A model generated the notes under the pieces. The model had not been told where the DNA came from, did no database searches, and worked only from the letters and a program-made list of their open reading frames with translations. The position numbers and the translations under genes are program-made. From an uncultured Candidatus Saccharibacteria bacterium (GTDB lineage: Bacteria > Patescibacteriota > Minisyncoccia > Phycocordibacterales > UBA2100): a stretch of DNA of 64,000 nt. How positions within the stretch are numbered: the first letter of the stretch is position 1; each line of letters opens with the position of its first letter. The DNA is taken from the NCBI GenBank assembly GCA_964654205.1, contig CAZZHR010000001.1, positions 65,953 to 129,952 on the forward strand. Direction: 5' to 3'. Of this stretch, positions 17,594 to 58,412 are shown piece after piece.

Positions 17594-18010
17594 ATGGCTA
17601 CGATAAACCAGCTCGCACGCAAAGGACGCAACCCGCGCGTGTACAAATCCAAGACCGGCGCGCTCGCGCGCGGTTTCAACACGCTCAAGAACCGCCCCTC
17701 TTTCTACCCGGCGCCCTTCAAGCGCGGTGTGTGCACTCGCGTCACGACCAAGACGCCTAGGAAGCCCAACTCCGCCATCCGCAAAATCGCCCGTGTCCGT
17801 CTTTCCAATGGGATGGAAATCACCGCCTATATCCCGGGCGAGGGGCACAACCTCCAGGAGCACTCGGTCGTCCTCGTGCGCGGTGGTCGCGTGAAAGACA
17901 TCGGCATCCGCTACACTATCGTGCGCGGTAAGCTCGACGCGACAGGAGTGGAGAAGCGCCGCCGCGGTCGCTCACGATACGGGGCCAAGAAGCCGAAGGC
18001 CGCCAAGTAA
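17594..18010 (+). CDS. rpsL: 30S ribosomal protein S12
   Basis: [12 protein letters not shown]-terminus and 'PNSAIRK..RVRL' core. Confidence 0.95.
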
Positions 18011-18050
18011 TTTCCTATAACCTACAACCTGTTCCCTCTAAACTATCTCT

Positions 18051-18512
18051 ATGCGACGCCCCGTAAAAAATCGTAAACAGCCGCAGCCCGACGAAGTGTA
18101 CGGGTCTCTGAAAGTTGCGAAGCTCATCAATTACGTGATGGAGCGCGGCAAGAAGGACACTGCGCGCAAGATCGTCTACAAGGTGATGGAGGAGCTCAAG
18201 AAGGAGGGTGACCCTGTCGCCATTCTCGAAGAGGCGCTCGACAAGGCGGCTCCGTCGGTAGAAGTGCGCTCACGCCGTGTCGGCGGCGCCAACTACCAGG
18301 TCCCGCGCGAGGTGCGCCCAGAGCGTCGTCTCGCACTCGGGCTTCGCTGGATAGTAGAGGCGGCCGAGGGTACGAAGGGGGTTCCGATGGCTGATGCTCT
18401 CCTCAAGGAAATACAGGCAGCATACAAAGGAGAGGGCAGTGCGGTCACCAAGAAAGAAACCACGCACCGCATGGCGGAAGCCAACAAAGCATTCGCTCAC
18501 TTTGCCTGGTAG
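18051..18512 (+). CDS. rpsG: 30S ribosomal protein S7
   Basis: S7 family pattern (KLINYVMERGKKDTA, GANYQVP.EVRPERR). Confidence 0.95.
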   Translation: MRRPVKNRKQPQPDEVYGSLKVAKLINYVMERGKKDTARKIVYKVMEELKKEGDPVAILEEALDKAAPSVEVRSRRVGGANYQVPREVRPERRLALGLRWIVEAAEGTKGVPMADALLKEIQAAYKGEGSAVTKKETTHRMAEANKAFAHFAW

Positions 18513-18579
18513 GGGAGAAGCTCCGCTTTATGGCGCGTGCAGGCCGACCGGTTTCTTTGGTGACGCATTCATGTATCAT

Positions 18580-18603
18580 CATCTGATGTCCTATCGGACA
18601 TCA
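18580..18603. terminator. Hairpin (CTGATGTCC-TATC-GGACATCAG) between convergent rpsG and PaaX-like gene
   Basis: Inverted repeat read directly. Confidence 0.5.
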
Positions 18604-18613
18604 GCAAGGCATA

Positions 18614-19162
18614 TCACAGATCAAAGAGCTTCTTAAGAGCATTCTCATTATCTATCCGCTCCAGGACGCCGTAGAGAATATGAGGCGAAAGGCGCGACTC
18701 TTCTCTGATCAACTGTGCAAGTTCTTCGCAGTCGTGAGGAAATATCCACACGCTTTTCTGTAACTGCGCAAATCCTGCTCGCTGTAAGACACTCCGGACT
18801 TTCCGCCGTAAGTGTGCATGTCGCTCGGGGACGTCGAACGTAACAATGCGCCACTTCTTGTCCCACCGAGCCTTGCCGAGAAGTTTTCGCGTTGAATCGG
18901 AGAGTATACCGAGTGCGGAACGGCCGAAATTAGTAAGAAAGAGTCGGTCTCCCTTGCGCTCGATGTACTGCTCGTCGACAAGCCGATCAATCGCGCACTT
19001 TCTTCTATATCGATATGCGGCGCGCTCTCTGGCCATTCGGTACATTCGCCCTGTCGAGTGAGCAGAGAGAAGAAAACCGTAGAGCAGGTCGCCTGCGGTA
19101 AGCTCATGCATCATTGAGAGCTCTATACTGCCCAACCGTCGCGCCTTTCGAATTCGAGACAT
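18614..19162 (-). CDS. PaaX-family-like putative transcriptional regulator (wHTH plus 'W.KKWR..FD.PER' middle domain), paralog 1
   Basis: 'WDKKWRIVTFDVPERHAHLRRKVRSVLQRAGFAQLQKSVWIFPHDCEE' parallels the E. coli PaaX 'WDGKWLLLL..' region. The pattern is shared with ORF 59026..59589. Confidence 0.55.
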   Translation of the reverse strand: MSRIRKARRLGSIELSMMHELTAGDLLYGFLLSAHSTGRMYRMARERAAYRYRRKCAIDRLVDEQYIERKGDRLFLTNFGRSALGILSDSTRKLLGKARWDKKWRIVTFDVPERHAHLRRKVRSVLQRAGFAQLQKSVWIFPHDCEELAQLIREESRLSPHILYGVLERIDNENALKKLFDL

Positions 19163-19227
19163 TGGTGCAGTATAGCATCTTTCAATGTCCGAGCGGACAC
19201 TGGACGATGGTATGGTACACTCGCGGC

Positions 19228-56377: not shown

Positions 56378-56378
56378 C

Positions 56379-56403
56379 AAAAAAGCCCTCGAGGGCTTTT
56401 TTG
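56379..56403 (+). terminator. Rho-independent terminator (AAAAAAGCCCTC-GAGGGCTTTTTTG)
   Basis: Immediately after the secY stop. Confidence 0.75.
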
Positions 56404-56434
56404 TTTCTAGGCGGAGTGCTACATTGCTCCCAAT

Positions 56435-57016
56435 ATGTCCAAGCAGGTCGTCGTCATCGCGGGTCCGAGTGGAAGCGGTAAGAACGCGATAATCAACAAA
56501 CTGCTTGAGCGATATCACAACTGCGCGCGCCTCGTTACGGCGACGACGCGCGCCATGCGTCCGGGCGAGAGGGATGGCGTCGACTACCACTTCTTCTCAC
56601 AAGAACGTTTTGATCAGGAGCTTGCCGCAGGACACATCCCCGAGCACCGATTCGTGCCGAGCCTCAACACATCGTACGGCATCTACACGCCCGAGCTCGA
56701 CAAACTCGTCAAGGCCGGGAAAATAGTTTTTGCCCAGGTCGATATCGAGGGCGCGAAGCTCCTTAAGGAGCGCTACAGAGCCACCTCGATTTTCATACTT
56801 CCCGAATCACTCGAACAGTTTAAGGGACGACTTCGTGCGCGTAACCCAGAGTGGAGTGACAAGGAGTTCGATGCACGCATGAAGATAACCGAAAATGAGC
56901 TTCGCGTGCATGCTCCGCAGTACGACTACCGCATTGTGAATGCAGACGGAAAACTCAGTGAAACCGTAGAAGAGGTCGTAGAAATATTGCGCAAAGAGGG
57001 GTATAGTCTTTCGTGA
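56435..57016 (+). CDS. gmk: Guanylate kinase
   Basis: P-loop 'IAGPSGSGKN', 'TTRAMRPGERDGVDYHF' and 'YGI' motifs. Confidence 0.85.
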   Translation: MSKQVVVIAGPSGSGKNAIINKLLERYHNCARLVTATTRAMRPGERDGVDYHFFSQERFDQELAAGHIPEHRFVPSLNTSYGIYTPELDKLVKAGKIVFAQVDIEGAKLLKERYRATSIFILPESLEQFKGRLRARNPEWSDKEFDARMKITENELRVHAPQYDYRIVNADGKLSETVEEVVEILRKEGYSLS

Positions 57017-57021
57017 ACAAC

Positions 57022-57612
57022 ATGGAACCAATCACAGTTGCTTTTTTCGGCATATCAGGCTCGGGCAAGGGCACGCAGGCAGAACTGCTCGAAAAGTACC
57101 TCAAGGAACACGATTCGCACGGAGTCATCCGCCCCGAGATGGGCAATCTGCTGCGCACGTACATGCAGTCGGGCACGCAATTCGCAAAGAAAACTGGCGA
57201 GATTGTCTCGAGCGGCGGTCTCGTGCCGTCGTTCATGCCTATCTATTTGCTCACAGGCACGCTCAACGAATCTTTCGACGGGTCGCAGCACGTGATACTC
57301 GACGGCACGTGCCGCCGCCCCGACCAGTCGCGTGCAGCCGACGACATGATGCGCCTTTTCGGAAGGACGAATTTGCACATTCTCTCGCTCGAGCTCACAC
57401 CCGAGAGCGCGAAGCAAAGACTCATCGCTCGCGGGAGGGCTGACGATGCCAAGGACGAAGCGATAGCGAATCGATTCGCCTGGTATCAAGAGCACGTCGT
57501 CCCCGCCATGCAAGAGCTCGAAAAATGCGGCTGGACGCTCCACAAGATAGACGGGGAACCCGGCGTAGAGGAGATTCACACAAATATTCTTGCCACTCTA
57601 GCTCTCTCGTAA
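57022..57612 (+). CDS. adk: Adenylate kinase (short, lid without zinc knuckle)
   Basis: 'FFGISGSGKGTQAELL' P-loop and 'ILDGTCRRPDQ' NMP/lid pattern. Confidence 0.88.
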   Translation: MEPITVAFFGISGSGKGTQAELLEKYLKEHDSHGVIRPEMGNLLRTYMQSGTQFAKKTGEIVSSGGLVPSFMPIYLLTGTLNESFDGSQHVILDGTCRRPDQSRAADDMMRLFGRTNLHILSLELTPESAKQRLIARGRADDAKDEAIANRFAWYQEHVVPAMQELEKCGWTLHKIDGEPGVEEIHTNILATLALS

Positions 57613-57653
57613 GGTCTGACCTTCAGGACCCAAAAAGGTCGGACCTTGAACGT

Positions 57654-58412
57654 ATGATCGCGAAAACCCAAGAAGAGATAGAAATACTGCGCGAGGGTGG
57701 GCGTAGGCTCGCGCGTCATGTCCGCATCCTCTCAGAGATGGTAAAGCCGGGTGTGAGCGGCGCCTCTCTCGAAGCGAAAGCACGGGAGATGGTCGCGGCT
57801 GATGGTGACACGATGGCCTTCCACGAATACGGCAAGCCGCCGTTCCCGTCGGGGCTCTGCGTCTCGGTCAACGACACCATCGTGCACTCTCCCGCGGGGC
57901 AAAATGGCTCAGTGTTTGAAGAGGGTGACGTGGTGTGCCTCGATTTCGGCATCGTGCACAAAGGGCTCTACACAGACCATGCGGTCACCGTGATTGCAGG
58001 TAAGGCACAGAGTGAAGATGACAAGCGGCTTGTGCGTGGCGTCTTCGAAGCGCTCCAGCTCGGCATCGACCAGGCACGAGTGGGCAACTTCACGGGCGAC
58101 ATCGGTCACGCAGTCGAGCGCTATGCAAAGAAAAACGGATTCGGCTACCCGAAGAATCTCTCCGGTCACGGCGTCGGCAAGCAAGTGCACGAAGAGCCAC
58201 ACGTGCCGAACTTCGGCGCCCCCCAAAGCGGCGTAAAGCTCGAAGAAGGCCTCGTCATCGCGATAGAGCCGATGTTCACGCTCGGCTCGGGTGAACTCTT
58301 TGTCGATAAAGACGGCCACGGATACCGCACGAAAGACAAGTCACGCGCGGCACACGCAGAACACACCGTCATCGTCACGCAGGGTGGCGCGGAAATCCTC
58401 ACGAAAGAATAG
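57654..58412 (+). CDS. map: Methionine aminopeptidase type I
   Basis: 'KTQEEIEILREGG', 'DFG...GLYTDHAVT', 'GHGVGKQVHEEP', 'FTLG' metal-ligand motifs. Confidence 0.92.
   Translation: MIAKTQEEIEILREGGRRLARHVRILSEMVKPGVSGASLEAKAREMVAADGDTMAFHEYGKPPFPSGLCVSVNDTIVHSPAGQNGSVFEEGDVVCLDFGIVHKGLYTDHAVTVIAGKAQSEDDKRLVRGVFEALQLGIDQARVGNFTGDIGHAVERYAKKNGFGYPKNLSGHGVGKQVHEEPHVPNFGAPQSGVKLEEGLVIAIEPMFTLGSGELFVDKDGHGYRTKDKSRAAHAEHTVIVTQGGAEILTKE

What the first reader, a model, noticed from the sequence alone, without database searches (positions are those of the whole stretch)
17594..58412. Canonical str–S10–spc gene order preserved but interrupted by at least seven accessory insertions
The order is rpsL-rpsG | [PaaX-like(-), ung] | fusA | [Gly-rich+cupredoxin-like] | tuf | [low-GC island: 2 zinc-ribbon proteins, hypothetical, HAD remnant, small ORF] | rpsJ | [~14 kb: cupredoxin-like+Gly-rich, peptides, Cys-rich protein, HTTM-like, YcaO, SagB, PRTase-PQQ, TPR...] | rplC-D-W-B | [2 small reverse genes] | rpsS...rplN | [IR + rplX 5' duplicate] | rplX-rplE | [MTase, NUDIX, Fis-HTH(-), hypothetical] | rpsN...secY | gmk | adk-map | [LOG, PaaX-like, purD] in place of infA-rpmJ-rpsM-rpsK-rpsD-rpoA. 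Most insertions are bounded by intrinsic terminators. Such dense colonisation of the most conserved bacterial operon is striking and gives natural landmarks for comparative analysis.
Basis: partly seen in the sequence, partly recalled or inferred. Interest (0 to 1): 0.6.

Follow-up and report, generated by a model that had tools for sequence, protein, structure and literature searches.

The report
Ribosomal gene cluster with cargo hot-spots
In this tiny uncultured (Paceibacterota/CPR) bacterium the ribosomal-protein gene cluster keeps its order but is split at a few fixed junctions, open across the whole clade, where unrelated genes, including an antibiotic-like peptide pathway, come and go.

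Summary
rpsL to map keep the canonical str–S10–spc order on the + strand (L30 absent, as usual in CPR) and are interrupted at nine places by genes that are not part of the canonical cluster.

In 24 Paceibacterota loci, gaps of 400 nt or more occur only at eight junctions: rpsG|fusA, fusA|tuf, tuf|rpsJ, rpsJ|rplC, rplB|rpsS, rplE|rpsN, secY|adk and adk|map. None was seen at the other 18.

Some cargo is inherited: gmk, the methyltransferase after rplE, the small reverse gene before rpsS, and the YcaO cluster between rpsJ and rplC in six other genomes. Other cargo turns over quickly:
- The nearest relative lacks the 10.4-kb YcaO block.
- Close relatives carry a different YcaO/SagB type.
- Relatives carry a transposase, a reverse transcriptase and an integrase at these junctions.

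Cargo specific to this genome among the loci compared is a 190-nt structured element before rplX, two PaaX-like cassettes and the tuf|rpsJ island.

The large insert is a TOMM/LAP-type peptide cluster. It has Cys/Gly/Asp-rich precursors, a YcaO, a SagB dehydrogenase, a PRTase–propeller fusion and a vitamin-K-carboxylase-fold membrane protein.

Verdict: a new variant of known kinds, of moderate interest.

The parts
17594..18512 (+). Block 1: rpsL, rpsG
   Evidence: Pfam Ribosom_S12_S23 and Ribosomal_S7. Upstream genes are RecJ, RNase H, ComEC, SOD(-), MBL and an M50 peptidase, not rpoBC.
18513..20178 (.). Junction rpsG|fusA cargo: PaaX-like wHTH + Cas2-like gene 18614-19162(-) flanked by ATGTCCnnnnGGACA palindromes, and uracil-DNA glycosylase 19222-19893(+)
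   Evidence: Pfam PaaX_M, CRISPR_Cas2 and UDG. ung is shared with metagenome locus L090 at 82% aa, at the same junction. There a 339-aa secreted protein replaces PaaX. The palindromes were read.
20179..22320 (+). Block 2: fusA (EF-G)
   Evidence: Pfam GTP_EFTU, EFG_III, EFG_IV and EFG_C.
22321..25118 (+).
   Evidence: Pfam Gly_rich_2, E 5e-17. Paralogous to the pair at 28992-31179 (45% and 28% identity). The C-terminal domain is shared with the L085 434-aa protein at the same junction (52%).
25119..26318 (+). Block 3: tuf (EF-Tu)
   Evidence: Pfam GTP_EFTU, D2 and D3. 89-91% aa identity to L081, L083 and L085.
26319..28551 (.). Junction tuf|rpsJ island with lower GC: zinc-ribbon + TM protein 26424-26705, hypothetical membrane protein 26766-27635, zinc-ribbon ORF about 27795-27981, HAD motif-I remnant 28078-28162, hairpins 28010-28035 and 28476-28503
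   Evidence: Translations. GC 0.46-0.50. No Pfam hit. No homolog in any related locus.
28552..28914 (+). Block 4: rpsJ (S10), isolated
   Evidence: Pfam Ribosomal_S10, E 6.5e-30.
28992..31179 (+). Second TM + beta-domain protein (28992-29453) and second Gly_rich_2 protein (29389/29464-31179)
   Evidence: Pfam Gly_rich_2. Retained in part in the nearest relative L172.
31487..31699 (-). Small secreted peptide gene (signal peptide plus about 40 aa), conserved in L172
   Evidence: DNA alignment with L172, which has a called 60-aa gene there.
31800..42220 (.). 10.4-kb block present here and absent from the nearest relative: the TOMM/LAP-type cluster
   Evidence: blastn and alignment against L172. 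Homology stops near 31790 and resumes at about 42230-42351. GC 0.536 against 0.568 for the window.
32198..33415 (+). Cys-rich 405-aa protein, function unknown
   Evidence: No Pfam or NCBIfam hit. 28-29% homolog next to YcaO in L085.
33421..34962 (-). Polytopic membrane protein with vitamin-K gamma-carboxylase (HTTM + lumenal domain) fold
   Evidence: AF2 pLDDT 89.7, pTM 0.90. The top 14 Foldseek PDB hits are all GGCX, E 1.5e-7 to 3e-6, and the next hit has E about 1. The family has 658 representatives. Orthologs lie in the clusters of L173, L175 and L088.
34964..36484 (-). YcaO, SagD-like, with C-terminal NPWPHPFP
   Evidence: Pfam YcaO, E 5.9e-44. TIGR03604 scores 178 bits over the full model, below the 219 cutoff. 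The PxPxP end is conserved in 25 of 27 homologs.
36537..37250 (+). SagB-family FMN dehydrogenase
   Evidence: Pfam Nitroreductase. TIGR03605 scores 131.8 bits, above the 78.4 cutoff.
37229..38959 (-). OPRT-like phosphoribosyltransferase fused to a PQQ/BamB-type beta-propeller
   Evidence: Pfam Beta-prop_ACSF4, PQQ_2 and Pribosyltran. pyrE-like, 72 bits. It lies within a few kb of YcaO-SagB, mostly directly next to them, in all nine clusters examined.
38994..39260 (+). Candidate precursor peptide: N-terminal TM helix, ADAPY motif, Gly/Cys/Asp/Ser-rich tail (GGCGCDGSDGSGGDGSDGG)
   Evidence: Orthologous small ORFs in L081, L083, L085, L086, L173 and L175, all with Cys/Gly/acidic cores.
39257..42698 (+). 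Four secreted or membrane-anchored proteins: 391 aa, TPR 260 aa (40448-41230), 333 aa with Ig-like C-terminal domain (41217-42218), 158 aa (42222-42698)
   Evidence: Pfam TPR families. The TPR / ~320 aa / ~157 aa trio lies directly upstream of rplC in L001, L083, L085, L173, L175 and L176; the L081 contig, which ends before rplC, has the TPR and the ~157-aa gene. The 158-aa gene is also in L172.
42700..42824 (+). rplC leader: promoter-like TTGCAT-17-TATAGT, two hairpins, T-run (42791-42816)
   Evidence: Sequence; terminator-like hit. The strict scan finds a promoter before rplC in 6 of 19 related loci.
42825..45415 (+). Block 5: rplC, rplD, rplW, rplB
   Evidence: Pfam L3, L4, L23 and L2.
45416..46378 (.). 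Junction rplB|rpsS: bidirectional hairpin 45486-45512, small reverse genes 45536-45757(-) and 45963-46208(-), promoter TTGACA-17-TACATT 46271-46299, leader hairpin + T-run 46310-46372
   Evidence: The 81-aa reverse gene has 55% and 45% homologs at the same junction in L172 and L173. The junction is open in 14 of 16 loci. A promoter lies before rpsS in 13 of 16 loci against a 6.4% background.
46379..49163 (+). Block 6: rpsS, rplV, rpsC, rplP, rpmC, rpsQ, rplN
   Evidence: Pfam.
47480..49057 (+). 1,578-nt tract 100% identical to GCA_964594735.1 in a background of about 80-87% identity
   Evidence: Sliding identity and mismatch positions.
49164..49426 (+). Junction rplN|rplX: about 190-nt structured repeat element (49164-49352), relic of the ancestral rplX start (49351-49371), 55-nt filler
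   Evidence: 88-92% identical copy between rpsQ and rplN in L173. Absent from L170/L172, L171/L175, L001 and all others. MFE -71.9 kcal/mol, z = -7.8.
49427..50281 (+). Block 7: rplX, rplE
   Evidence: Pfam L24/KOW and L5.
50282..52523 (.). Junction rplE|rpsN: SAM methyltransferase 50322-51014, NUDIX 51017-51487, HTH_8 protein 51535-51831(-), hypothetical 51884-52339, promoter TTGACT-17-TATATT 52343-52371, hairpin 52376-52393, conserved leader to 52523
   Evidence: Pfam. The MTase is 95%, 93% and 80% identical in L172, L173 and L171/L175. NUDIX is shared with L171/L175 (68%), replaced by LMWPc in L172, and by a response regulator in L173. Promoter and hairpin.
52524..56377 (+). Block 8: rpsN (short Zn type), rpsH, rplF, rplR, rpsE, rplO, secY; no rpmD
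   Evidence: Pfam. S14 is 61 aa with CxxC...CxxC here and in L173, but 89 aa without Cys motifs in L172 and L175.
56435..57016 (+). gmk inserted between secY and adk
   Evidence: Pfam Guanylate_kin. Same position in L001, L005, L170 and L171.
57013..58412 (+). Block 9: adk, map
   Evidence: Pfam ADK and Peptidase_M24.
58415..63989 (+). Downstream genes in place of infA...rpoA: LOG 58415-58957, PaaX-like 59026-59589 flanked by palindromes 58992-59025 and 59591-59624, purD 59667-60932, TraG/VirD4-like 61188-63989
   Evidence: Pfam. The palindromes give 3 matches against 0.02 expected. L170 has map-LOG-purD-TraG without PaaX, and L171 has map-TraG.

Best explanation
What it is. The window comes from a Paceibacterota (Parcubacteria, CPR) genome near Ca. 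Kaiserbacteria. In this clade the str–S10–spc ribosomal-protein supercluster is not one tight array. It is a chain of short gene blocks: rpsL-rpsG / fusA / tuf / rpsJ / rplC-B / rpsS-rplE / rpsN-secY / adk-map. The blocks are separated by a fixed set of permissive junctions.

How cargo behaves (shown). Cargo sits only at those junctions. Some is inherited vertically for a while and is then lost, replaced or swapped.

How cargo moves (inferred). Homologous recombination anchored in the very conserved flanking ribosomal genes exchanges whole cassettes. Small mobile elements and transposase-, reverse-transcriptase- or integrase-bearing inserts add new material.

Why insertions are tolerated (partly shown). 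At least the rpsS block, and probably the rplC and rpsN blocks, carry their own sigma70-like promoter. Each promoter is followed by a GC hairpin and a T-run shortly before the start codon. An insertion between blocks therefore need not cut a ribosomal gene off from transcription. The same hairpins can insulate blocks from read-through.

The largest cargo. It is a TOMM/LAP-type RiPP cluster. A membrane-anchored precursor with a Cys/Gly/Asp-rich tail is predicted to be heterocyclised by a SagD-like YcaO and oxidised by a SagB dehydrogenase. Accessory proteins are a PRTase–beta-propeller fusion, a vitamin-K-carboxylase-fold membrane protein and TPR or secreted proteins. Their roles are unknown.
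For: Lineage.
- rplB is 79% identical to a Ca. Paceibacterota MAG and 64-67% to Kaiserbacteria and Zambryskiibacteria.
- The nearest relative is GCA_964594735.1 (rplB 98%, rplC 96%, rplP/rpsQ/rplN 100% aa).

Fixed junctions. In 24 Paceibacterota loci (two pairs of them overlapping stretches of one contig), gaps of 400 nt or more occur only at:
- rpsG|fusA, 6 of 7;
- fusA|tuf, 7 of about 9;
- tuf|rpsJ, 5 of 15;
- rpsJ|rplC, 7 of 15;
- rplB|rpsS, 14 of 16;
- rplE|rpsN, 10 of 15;
- secY|adk, 5 of 8;
- adk|map, 1 of 5.
None occurred in about 270 observations at the other 18 junctions. Among the 62 non-Paceibacterota loci, rplB|rpsS is never wider than 130 nt, and rpsJ|rplC and rplE|rpsN are narrower than 400 nt (one Collinsella locus has a 3.2-kb gap at rpsJ|rplC).

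Inherited cargo.
- The YcaO cluster lies between rpsJ and rplC, or directly upstream of rplC where the locus does not reach rpsJ, in L001, L081, L083, L085, L173/L174 and L175.
- The MTase, gmk and the reverse small gene are shared.

Turnover.
- Cargo ORFs of different genomes are mutually non-homologous.
- The nearest relative lacks the 10.4-kb block.
- There is phylogenetic incongruence. The closest rplB relatives (94-96%) carry a 23-27% identical 'type B' YcaO. The 80% rplB relatives carry the 38-43% 'type A' YcaO found here. The rplC-proximal genes follow the ribosomal tree.

Recombination.
- A 1,578-nt tract is 100% identical to the nearest relative, with flanks at 80-87%. It ends at the rplN|rplX junction.
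- The S14 type is polymorphic next to the rplE|rpsN junction.

Mobile agents.
- Y1 transposase and reverse transcriptase in relatives' junctions.
- rve integrase.
- The 190-nt element sits at a different junction in L173.
- The PaaX cassettes are absent at the same sites in the nearest relatives.

Promoter and leader.
- 13 of 16 loci have a promoter before rpsS, and 9 of 16 have a promoter plus hairpin-T. Background is 6.4% and 0.37%.

TOMM assignment. LAP clusters in Parcubacteria were reported by PMC7298704.
Against: - The strict promoter scan found nothing before rpsL, fusA, tuf and rpsJ. It found a promoter in only 6 of 19 loci for rplC and 3 of 9 for rpsN. Independent transcription of every block is therefore not shown.
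- No transcript data are available.
- The relatives are phylogenetically clustered. The counts of shared junctions are not independent events.
- Two pairs of loci (L170/L172 and L171/L175) are the same contigs.
- The 100% tract could be assembly or consensus cross-talk between co-occurring populations rather than recombination.
- Loss of the YcaO block in the nearest relative versus re-gain here cannot be polarised without a tree.
- YcaO scores below NCBIfam's SagD cutoff, and no E1-like/SagC partner was found.
Confidence: 0.7

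Rival explanations
1. One reading: seven or more separate, fairly recent accessory insertions colonised an otherwise canonical operon in this particular genome.
For: Some elements are unique to this genome among the loci compared.
- The 263-nt insert before rplX is absent in all 15 other loci that cover that junction.
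- PaaX1 and PaaX2 are absent at the same sites in L090 and L170.
- The tuf|rpsJ island content, with its gene remnants, has no homolog elsewhere.
- Cargo GC3 is lower than that of the core genes, 0.62 against 0.72.
Against: - Most interrupted junctions and much of the cargo are shared with relatives of 65-98% rplB identity.
- The largest 'insertion' is older than the split from genomes with 80% identical L2.
- Lower GC3 is equally expected for weakly expressed genes.
Confidence: 0.1
2. Functional coupling: the cargo is kept inside the ribosomal cluster because it acts on translation. Examples would be a YcaO/SagB module modifying a ribosomal protein, or a methyltransferase or NUDIX enzyme acting on rRNA or r-proteins. 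Alternatively, the cargo may need ribosome-like co-expression.
For: - The YcaO cluster keeps its position next to rplC in at least six genomes. In L086 it lies beside rpmE-prfA-rpsB-tsf.
- The MTase after rplE is 80-95% conserved.
- E. coli YcaO has been linked to S12 methylthiolation and proposed for uL16 thioamidation (PMC7550191).
- A rhodanese gene lies in the L083 cluster.
Against: - The nearest relative has lost the whole YcaO block while keeping 94-100% identical ribosomal proteins.
- A distant member of the cluster (L088) lies among unrelated genes.
- The cluster has its own conserved Cys/Gly-rich precursor gene and a SagB dehydrogenase. These are hallmarks of a secreted azole peptide.
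- Cargo at the other junctions is functionally heterogeneous.
- Conservation of position within one clade is expected from descent alone.
Confidence: 0.12
3. Assembly artefact: the contig is a chimera of related populations joined through conserved ribosomal genes, so the dense cargo does not belong to one genome.
For: A 1,578-nt stretch is identical to another MAG, with abrupt drops to about 83% on both sides. This is the pattern expected if assemblers switch between co-occurring strains in conserved segments. The exact EF-Tu of the window is not on record in the indexed assemblies.
Against: - The same block order and the same open junctions recur in independent assemblies from different projects and samples (L001, L081, L083, L085, L170/172, L171/175, L173 and L174 from two samples, L176, L090).
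- Both sides of the identical tract are syntenic with the same relative contig.
- There is no N run, and composition is even outside the cargo.
Confidence: 0.05

Closest known systems
[quoted passage not shown] 2019, PMC6735719)
   Same: - Conserved order, with a few genes inserted between transcription units.
- Inserted genes are later lost or the units become disconnected.
- Single genes are exchanged for distant homologs.
- Transposons are proposed as facilitators.
   Different: - There the insertions are mostly between the classical operons and are rare over long time spans.
- Here the open junctions lie inside the classical str, S10 and spc operons (rpsG|fusA, fusA|tuf, rpsJ|rplC, rplB|rpsS, rplE|rpsN). 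The classical S10|spc border (rpsQ|rplN) is tight.
- The same junctions are open across a whole CPR clade, with rapid cargo turnover.
LAP (YcaO + nitroreductase) clusters reported in CPR genomes, including 51 Parcubacteria (Sharrar et al. 2020, PMC7298704)
   Same: YcaO next to a SagB-type nitroreductase, with a nearby Ser/Cys-rich precursor, in CPR genomes.
   Different: - The published example (Microgenomates) has YcaO, a nitroreductase, a peptidase and an 84-aa precursor.
- The passages read do not mention a location inside the S10 operon.
- The cluster here has no peptidase.
- Its precursor has an N-terminal TM helix.
- It has a constant PRTase–beta-propeller partner, TPR and secreted proteins, and in 4 of 9 clusters a GGCX-fold membrane protein.
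Microcin B17, klebsazolicin and phazolicin-type linear azole peptides
   Same: - Gly/Cys/Ser-rich core.
- SagD-like YcaO with a PxPxP C-terminus (from my own knowledge of Dunbar et al. 2014).
- FMN dehydrogenase.
   Different: - No E1-like/SagC (McbB-like) partner was detected.
- No ABC exporter or immunity gene was recognised.
- The core is rich in acidic residues.
- The product is unknown.
Vitamin K-dependent gamma-carboxylase / bacterial HTTM-domain proteins (e.g. SdpB)
   Same: Whole-protein fold match to human GGCX, covering the membrane and lumenal domains. It is encoded beside a peptide with an acidic, Gly-rich tail.
   Different: - No Pfam HTTM hit, and only about 16% identity.
- The quinone cofactor and the substrate are unknown.
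- CPR bacteria are not known to make quinones (own knowledge).
MITE/REP-like intergenic repeat elements
   Same: - Small size (about 190 nt).
- 18-19 bp inverted arms and strong secondary structure.
- Nearly identical copies at different intergenic sites in related genomes.
   Different: - Only four copies have been seen so far, all within the ribosomal cluster.
- There is no clear target-site duplication.
- It sits exactly between a stop codon and the next ATG.
- In two genomes its hairpin occupies the place of the ordinary rpsS leader hairpin. It may therefore be a functional leader/terminator module rather than a selfish element.

Membership tests
Canonical bacterial str-S10-spc(-alpha) cluster | Gene order rpsL-rpsG-fusA-tuf-rpsJ-rplCDWB-rpsS-rplV-rpsC-rplP-rpmC-rpsQ-rplNXE-rpsNH-rplFR-rpsE-(rpmD)-rplO-secY-adk-map | tested here: met
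   Pfam. All genes are on the + strand in this order. rpmD is absent, as in all the Paceibacterota loci compared.
Canonical bacterial str-S10-spc(-alpha) cluster | Contiguity: intergenic gaps of tens of bases within operons | tested here: not met
   Gaps of 1.7, 2.8, 2.2, 13.8, 0.9, 0.23, 2.2 and 0.6 kb.
Canonical bacterial str-S10-spc(-alpha) cluster | Continuation into infA-rpmJ-rpsM-rpsK-rpsD-rpoA-rplQ after map | tested here: not met
   No infA, rpmJ or rpsM in the window, or in the 10 kb after map in L170 and L171. They are present after map in the non-CPR loci.
TOMM / linear azole peptide (LAP) biosynthetic cluster | YcaO cyclodehydratase of the SagD type | tested here: inconclusive
   Pfam YcaO passes (151 bits against a 25.7 cutoff). 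TIGR03604 aligns end to end but scores 178 bits, below the 219 cutoff. The C-terminal PxPxP motif (NPWPHPFP) is present and conserved.
TOMM / linear azole peptide (LAP) biosynthetic cluster | SagB-family FMN dehydrogenase adjacent to YcaO | tested here: met
   TIGR03605 scores 131.8 bits, above the 78.4 cutoff. It is adjacent to YcaO in all nine clusters.
TOMM / linear azole peptide (LAP) biosynthetic cluster | E1-like / SagC (Ocin-ThiF) partner or RRE for leader recognition | tested here: not met
   No such family was hit by any cluster ORF in Pfam or NCBIfam. The 150-aa N-terminal extension of YcaO is unassigned.
TOMM / linear azole peptide (LAP) biosynthetic cluster | Small precursor gene with a Cys/Ser/Thr-rich core | tested here: met
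   The 88-aa ORF 38994-39260 and six orthologs have Cys/Gly/Ser/acidic tails after a conserved (H/Y/F)AD(A/V) motif, extended to ADAPY in three of them. Modification itself was not tested.
TOMM / linear azole peptide (LAP) biosynthetic cluster | Azol(in)e-containing product | not testable with these tools
   Needs expression and mass spectrometry.
HTTM / vitamin K-dependent carboxylase superfamily | Fold: multi-pass HTTM membrane domain plus lumenal beta domain | tested here: met
   The AF2 model has pLDDT 89.7. The top 14 PDB hits are all GGCX, with probability 1.00 and TM about 0.5.
HTTM / vitamin K-dependent carboxylase superfamily | Sequence-profile membership (Pfam HTTM/VKGC models) | tested here: not met
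   No hit for the window protein at E ≤ 1. 2 of 32 homologs touch VKGC_lumenal_dom at E about 1e-3. The profile does not hit any PDB sequence.
HTTM / vitamin K-dependent carboxylase superfamily | Catalytic lysine (human K218) and quinone dependence | not tested
   A nearly invariant Lys (K186) lies in a YF..A...K....W..G motif. It resembles the human K218 region as I recall it. No residue-level alignment could be produced.
MITE-like mobile element (49164-49352) | Terminal or internal inverted repeats, small size, no coding capacity | tested here: met
MITE-like mobile element (49164-49352) | Copies at non-orthologous sites | tested here: met
   rplN|rplX here, against rpsQ|rplN in L173 at 88-92% identity. 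Hairpin-only copies lie in the rpsS leaders of the window and L083.
MITE-like mobile element (49164-49352) | Target-site duplication | tested here: inconclusive
   A 21-nt imperfect repeat of the rplX start flanks only the 55-nt filler, not the element.
Intrinsic terminators bounding the inserts | GC hairpin + T-run at the 3' end of a transcription unit | tested here: inconclusive
   The motifs are present and enriched. Several lie downstream of a promoter-like site and 10-15 nt before the next ATG. Function needs transcript mapping.

The most novel reading that the evidence does not exclude
The conserved module between rpsJ and rplC may not be an ordinary bacteriocin cluster. It comprises a TM-anchored Cys/Gly/acidic peptide, a YcaO, a SagB, a PRTase–propeller fusion, a GGCX-fold membrane enzyme and TPR or secreted proteins.

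It could be a CPR-specific system tied to the translation apparatus or to the episymbiotic cell surface. Two versions are possible:
- a ribosome-directed azole peptide or ribosomal-protein modifier that is co-regulated with r-protein synthesis;
- a peptide that is both heterocyclised and carboxylated by a bacterial vitamin-K-carboxylase homolog.

On this reading, the fixed-junction architecture of the ribosomal cluster is a selected 'docking platform' for such cassettes.
Probability: 0.12. Interest if true: 0.8.

Novelty: new variant of a known kind. Interest (0 to 1): 0.5.

Why it matters
1. Synteny assumptions. The str–S10–spc block is the textbook example of frozen gene order, and it is the source of the 16-protein marker set used to place CPR lineages. 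A whole Paceibacterota clade breaks this block at the same six to eight junctions and uses them as cargo hot-spots. This gives a natural system for studying how essential operons are subdivided. It also warns that synteny-based marker extraction and binning can miss or mis-join pieces.

2. Recombination at the core of the genome. The in-situ swap of YcaO/SagB types, the 10.4-kb presence/absence difference from a near-identical relative, and the 100% identical tract all suggest that conserved ribosomal genes act as homology arms for cassette exchange between related CPR populations.

3. A defined RiPP family. The cluster offers a conserved family for experimental work in organisms that are otherwise poor in secondary metabolism. 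It includes a confidently predicted bacterial vitamin-K-carboxylase-fold enzyme and a PRTase–propeller partner of unknown role.

Tried and rejected
- Exact look-up of the window's EF-Tu to find the source contig: not on record.
- tRNA scan: none found.
- Rfam, at gathering thresholds on the whole window and at E ≤ 1 on 42-53 kb: no r-protein leader or other family.
- PADLOC on ten cargo proteins: only generic domain matches (Cas2-like, MTase, NUDIX, HerA-like). No defence system was recognised.
- 'Cupredoxin-like' label: no Pfam hit even at E ≤ 1. AF2 on the two paralogs gave pLDDT 53, too poor to search. The label is left unverified.
- Sequence-profile search of the HTTM-like family against PDB: nothing at E ≤ 10. 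Only the fold comparison worked.
- Strict promoter + hairpin scan before rpsL, fusA, tuf and rpsJ: negative. I therefore dropped the claim that every block has a recognisable promoter.
- ung as an anchor in metagenomes: only one informative relative, L090. The other 79 hits are unrelated ung genes outside ribosomal clusters.
- Literature searches for PaaX/Cas2-like genes in CPR, and for HTTM together with YcaO: nothing.
- Chimeric-assembly explanation for the gene order: considered and rejected because independent assemblies agree. It is kept as a caveat for the 100% tract.

Full report
**1. Observation**

I called ORFs and scanned all plausible ones against Pfam as concatenated pseudo-proteins.
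- The ribosomal and translation genes from rpsL (17594) to map (58412) are all on the + strand and in canonical str–S10–spc order.
- rpmD (L30) is missing, which is typical of CPR bacteria.
- Non-ribosomal DNA lies at nine places: rpsG|fusA (1.7 kb), fusA|tuf (2.8 kb), tuf|rpsJ (2.2 kb), rpsJ|rplC (13.8 kb), rplB|rpsS (0.9 kb), rplN|rplX (0.26 kb), rplE|rpsN (2.2 kb), secY|adk (gmk), and after map (LOG, PaaX-like, purD, TraG-like).
- No infA, rpmJ or rpsM is present.
- Upstream of rpsL lie RecJ, RNase H, ComEC, SOD, an MBL hydrolase and an M50 peptidase, not rpoBC.
- Hairpin + T-run motifs are enriched, and the strong ones sit at junction borders.
- The inverted repeat and the duplicated rplX start are real.

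**2. Who it is, and what the relatives look like**

rplB finds a Ca. Paceibacterota MAG at 79% identity, and Kaiserbacteria- or Zambryskiibacteria-type genomes at 64-67%.

Protein searches with Map and L3 found closer relatives.
- GCA_964594735.1 (loci L170 and L172) is the nearest: L3 96%, L2 98%, and L16, S17 and L14 100%.
- A JGI contig (L173/L174) has L3 at 91%.
- A Logan contig (L171/L175) has L3 at 87%.
- Another is L176.

YcaO homologs led to L081, L083, L085, L086 and L088. ung led to L090.

I mapped the window's proteins on all of these with tblastn.

**3. The junctions are a clade property**

Across 24 Paceibacterota loci, gaps of 400 nt or more occur only at the following junctions.

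| Junction | Loci with a large gap |
|---|---|
| rpsG\|fusA | 6 of 7 |
| fusA\|tuf | 7 of about 9 valid |
| tuf\|rpsJ | 5 of 15 |
| rpsJ\|rplC | 7 of 15 |
| rplB\|rpsS | 14 of 16 |
| rplE\|rpsN | 10 of 15 |
| secY\|adk | 5 of 8 |
| adk\|map | 1 of 5 |

- None occurred in about 270 observations at the other 18 junctions.
- In the 62 non-Paceibacterota loci returned by the same search, rplB|rpsS is never wider than 130 nt.
- The classical S10|spc border (rpsQ|rplN) is tight in this clade.
- Caveat: the loci are related to one another, and two pairs are overlapping pieces of one contig. These are not independent counts.

**4. Dating each interruption**

- **rpsG|fusA.** ung is shared only with L090 (82% aa). 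There a 339-aa secreted protein takes the place of PaaX1. Other genomes carry unrelated genes at this junction.
- **fusA|tuf.** This junction always holds large secreted or surface proteins. L085 carries a protein with the same C-terminal domain at 52% identity.
- **tuf|rpsJ.** The content is unique to this genome. It includes a truncated HAD gene and lower-GC ORFs.
- **rpsJ|rplC.** See section 5.
- **rplB|rpsS.** The 81-aa reverse gene has homologs in L172 (55%) and L173 (45%).
- **rplN|rplX.** The insert is unique to this genome.
- **rplE|rpsN.**
  - The methyltransferase is 95%, 93% and 80% identical in L172, L173 and L171/L175.
  - NUDIX is shared with L171/L175. It is replaced by a low-molecular-weight phosphatase in L172, and by a response regulator in L173.
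  - S14 itself is the short zinc type here and in L173, but the long Cys-less type in L172 and L175.
- **secY|adk.** gmk is shared with L001, L005, L170 and L171.
- **After map.** L170 has LOG-purD-TraG-NDK without PaaX2. L171 has TraG-NDK directly.

**5. The 14-kb insert**

*Position in relatives.* A cluster of YcaO, nitroreductase, PQQ-propeller, a small ORF, a ~380-aa protein, TPR, a ~320-aa protein and a ~157-aa protein lies between rpsJ and rplC in L083 and L085. The same cluster lies directly upstream of rplC in L001, L173/L174 and L175, whose loci do not reach rpsJ. In L081 it lies directly downstream of rpsJ, and the contig ends before rplC.
- L176 keeps only the TPR, ~310-aa and ~160-aa genes.
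- L086 has the cluster next to rpmE-prfA-rpsB-tsf.
- L088 has it among unrelated genes.

*Absence in the nearest relative.* L172 has only 2.9 kb between rpsJ and rplC. Its content is a Cupr-like gene, a homolog of the C-terminal half of GlyRich2, the small secreted peptide gene and the 158-aa gene. DNA alignment places the presence/absence boundaries near 31800 and 42220-42350.

*Incongruent identities.*
- The closest ribosomal relatives (L173 and L175, rplB 94-96%) carry a 'type B' YcaO that is 23-27% identical. Their SagB is 32-33% identical.
- More distant genomes (L081, L083 and L085; L2 80-81% in L083 and L085, EF-Tu 89-91% in all three) carry the 'type A' YcaO found here, 38-43% identical. 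Their SagB is 46-50% identical.
- The rplC-proximal genes (333 aa and 158 aa) follow the ribosomal tree.
- The YcaO-SagB part has therefore been exchanged in situ. The breakpoint lies around the TPR gene.

**6. What the cluster is**

- **YcaO.** It matches TIGR03604 (SagD) end to end, but at 178 bits, below the 219 cutoff.
- **SagB.** It passes TIGR03605.
- **C-terminus.** All type A YcaOs end in NPWPHPFP. This is the PxPxP signature I know from azoline-forming YcaOs.
- **Precursor.**
  - The 88-aa ORF 38994-39260 has orthologs in six clusters.
  - Each has an N-terminal TM helix and a conserved (H/Y/F)AD(A/V) motif, ADAPY in three of them.
  - The tails include GGCGCDGSDGSGGDGSDGG, CGYSCGGDCGGDCGCDGG and GCGCGDGCGCGDGCSGDG.
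  - It is a convincing LAP-type precursor.
- **PRTase–propeller.** An OPRT-like PRTase fused to a beta-propeller accompanies YcaO-SagB in all nine clusters.
- **'HTTM-like' protein.**
  - It has no Pfam hit.
  - With a 32-sequence alignment from the representative search, AF2 gave pLDDT 89.7.
  - Foldseek returned only human vitamin-K gamma-carboxylase structures at E between 1e-7 and 1e-6.
- **Missing parts.** No E1-like partner, peptidase, exporter or immunity gene was recognised.
- **Prior report.** Sharrar et al. 2020 reported LAP clusters (YcaO + nitroreductase) in 51 Parcubacteria genomes. The passages I read say nothing about a ribosomal-operon location.

**7. How cargo moves**

- Relatives carry an IS200-type transposase (L011, rplB|rpsS), a reverse transcriptase (L006, rplE|rpsN), an rve integrase (L083) and toxin-antitoxin genes (L081, L172) in or next to these junctions.
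- The ~190-nt element 49164-49352 is strongly structured (z = -7.8). It is 88-92% identical to a copy between rpsQ and rplN in L173. In both genomes it fills exactly the space between a stop codon and the next ATG.
- Behind the element in the window lie a 21-nt relic identical to the L172 rplX start, 55 nt of filler, and then the present rplX start.
- Its hairpin arms also form the rpsS leader hairpin here and in L083.
- PaaX2 is flanked by two copies of a 34-nt palindrome, and PaaX1 by another. Both genes are missing at these sites in the nearest relatives.
- Window 47480-49057 is 100% identical to GCA_964594735.1, while the flanks are 80-87% identical. The tract ends at the rplN|rplX junction. 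This indicates either recent homologous recombination or assembly cross-talk.

**8. Why insertion is tolerated**

- Before rpsS, 13 of 16 loci have a TTGACA-17-TAnnAT promoter. In 9 of 16 a GC hairpin + T-run follows, and the ATG lies about 10 nt later. The background rates are 6.4% and 0.37%.
- The window shows the same layout before rpsN, and, with weaker -35 elements, before rpsL, fusA and rplC.
- The strict scan is positive in only 6 of 19 loci for rplC and 3 of 9 for rpsN. It is negative for rpsL, fusA, tuf and rpsJ.
- Independent transcription is therefore well supported for the rpsS block, suggested for the rplC and rpsN blocks, and unproven elsewhere.

**9. Comparison and verdict**

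Insertions into the big transcription/translation operon cluster are known from Gammaproteobacteria and Bacilli, as the 'invasion-separation' process (PMC8046335). There they occur mostly between the classical operons.

Three things differ here:
- a clade-wide set of fixed junctions inside the classical operons;
- fast cargo turnover, including in-situ module swapping;
- a conserved TOMM/LAP cluster with a GGCX-fold enzyme lodged between rpsJ and rplC.

I rate this a new variant of known kinds. Interest is moderate (0.5).

Noticed in passing
window 47480-49057: 1,578 nt (end of rpsC through most of rplN) are 100% identical to MAG GCA_964594735.1, while the flanking aligned DNA is 80-87% identical. 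The left edge is abrupt inside rpsC, and the right edge is at the rplN|rplX junction. This is either recent recombination or assembly cross-talk.
   Followed up: partly
window 33421-34962 (-): A 513-aa membrane protein without any Pfam hit folds confidently (pLDDT 89.7). It matches only human vitamin-K gamma-carboxylase structures. It belongs to a family of about 658 representative sequences and occurs in 4 of 9 YcaO clusters examined.
   Followed up: yes
window 24334-24393, 31120-31179, 42159-42218; also L011, L085, L170, L172, L173, L175: Many secreted proteins of this clade end with the same extreme C-terminal motif, (V/I)N(I/V)xP(V/T/A)F(x)E(x). Examples are NILPVFLER, RTIPAFQEI and NITPTFDEQ. 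It follows a shared ~75-aa Ig-like domain and may be a sorting or anchoring signal.
   Followed up: partly
window 52524-52709 vs L172 19126-19395: Ribosomal protein S14 is the short zinc-ribbon type (61 aa, CxxC...CxxC) here and in L173. It is the long Cys-less type (89 aa) in the two other close relatives. The allele type is therefore polymorphic, right next to a variable junction.
   Followed up: partly
window 52400-52523: A ~95-120-nt untranslated leader before rpsN is almost identical in L173 and partly conserved in L171 and L172. There is no Rfam match. It may be an unrecognised ribosomal-protein leader.
   Followed up: no
window 58992-59025 and 59591-59624; 18582-18603 and 19185-19202: Each of the two PaaX-like (wHTH + Cas2-like) genes is bracketed by its own pair of palindromes. 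Both genes are absent at the same sites in the nearest relatives. This suggests small mobile or self-regulated cassettes.
   Followed up: partly
window 22606-24903 and 28992-31179: The Gly_rich_2 protein and the small TM + beta-domain protein occur as two paralogous pairs (45% and 28% identity). The gene order is opposite in the two pairs, which lie on either side of tuf...rpsJ.
   Followed up: partly
L083 7725-9468; L081 6706-7277; L172 2278-2845: Relatives carry a rhodanese and an rve integrase (L083), a PemK toxin (L081) and a RelB/ParE pair (L172) inside or beside the same junctions.
   Followed up: no
window 61188-63989: A 933-aa TraG/VirD4-like ATPase (DUF8128 in relatives) follows the cluster. 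It is conserved at 80-92% identity, with NDK downstream, in the closest relatives.
   Followed up: no
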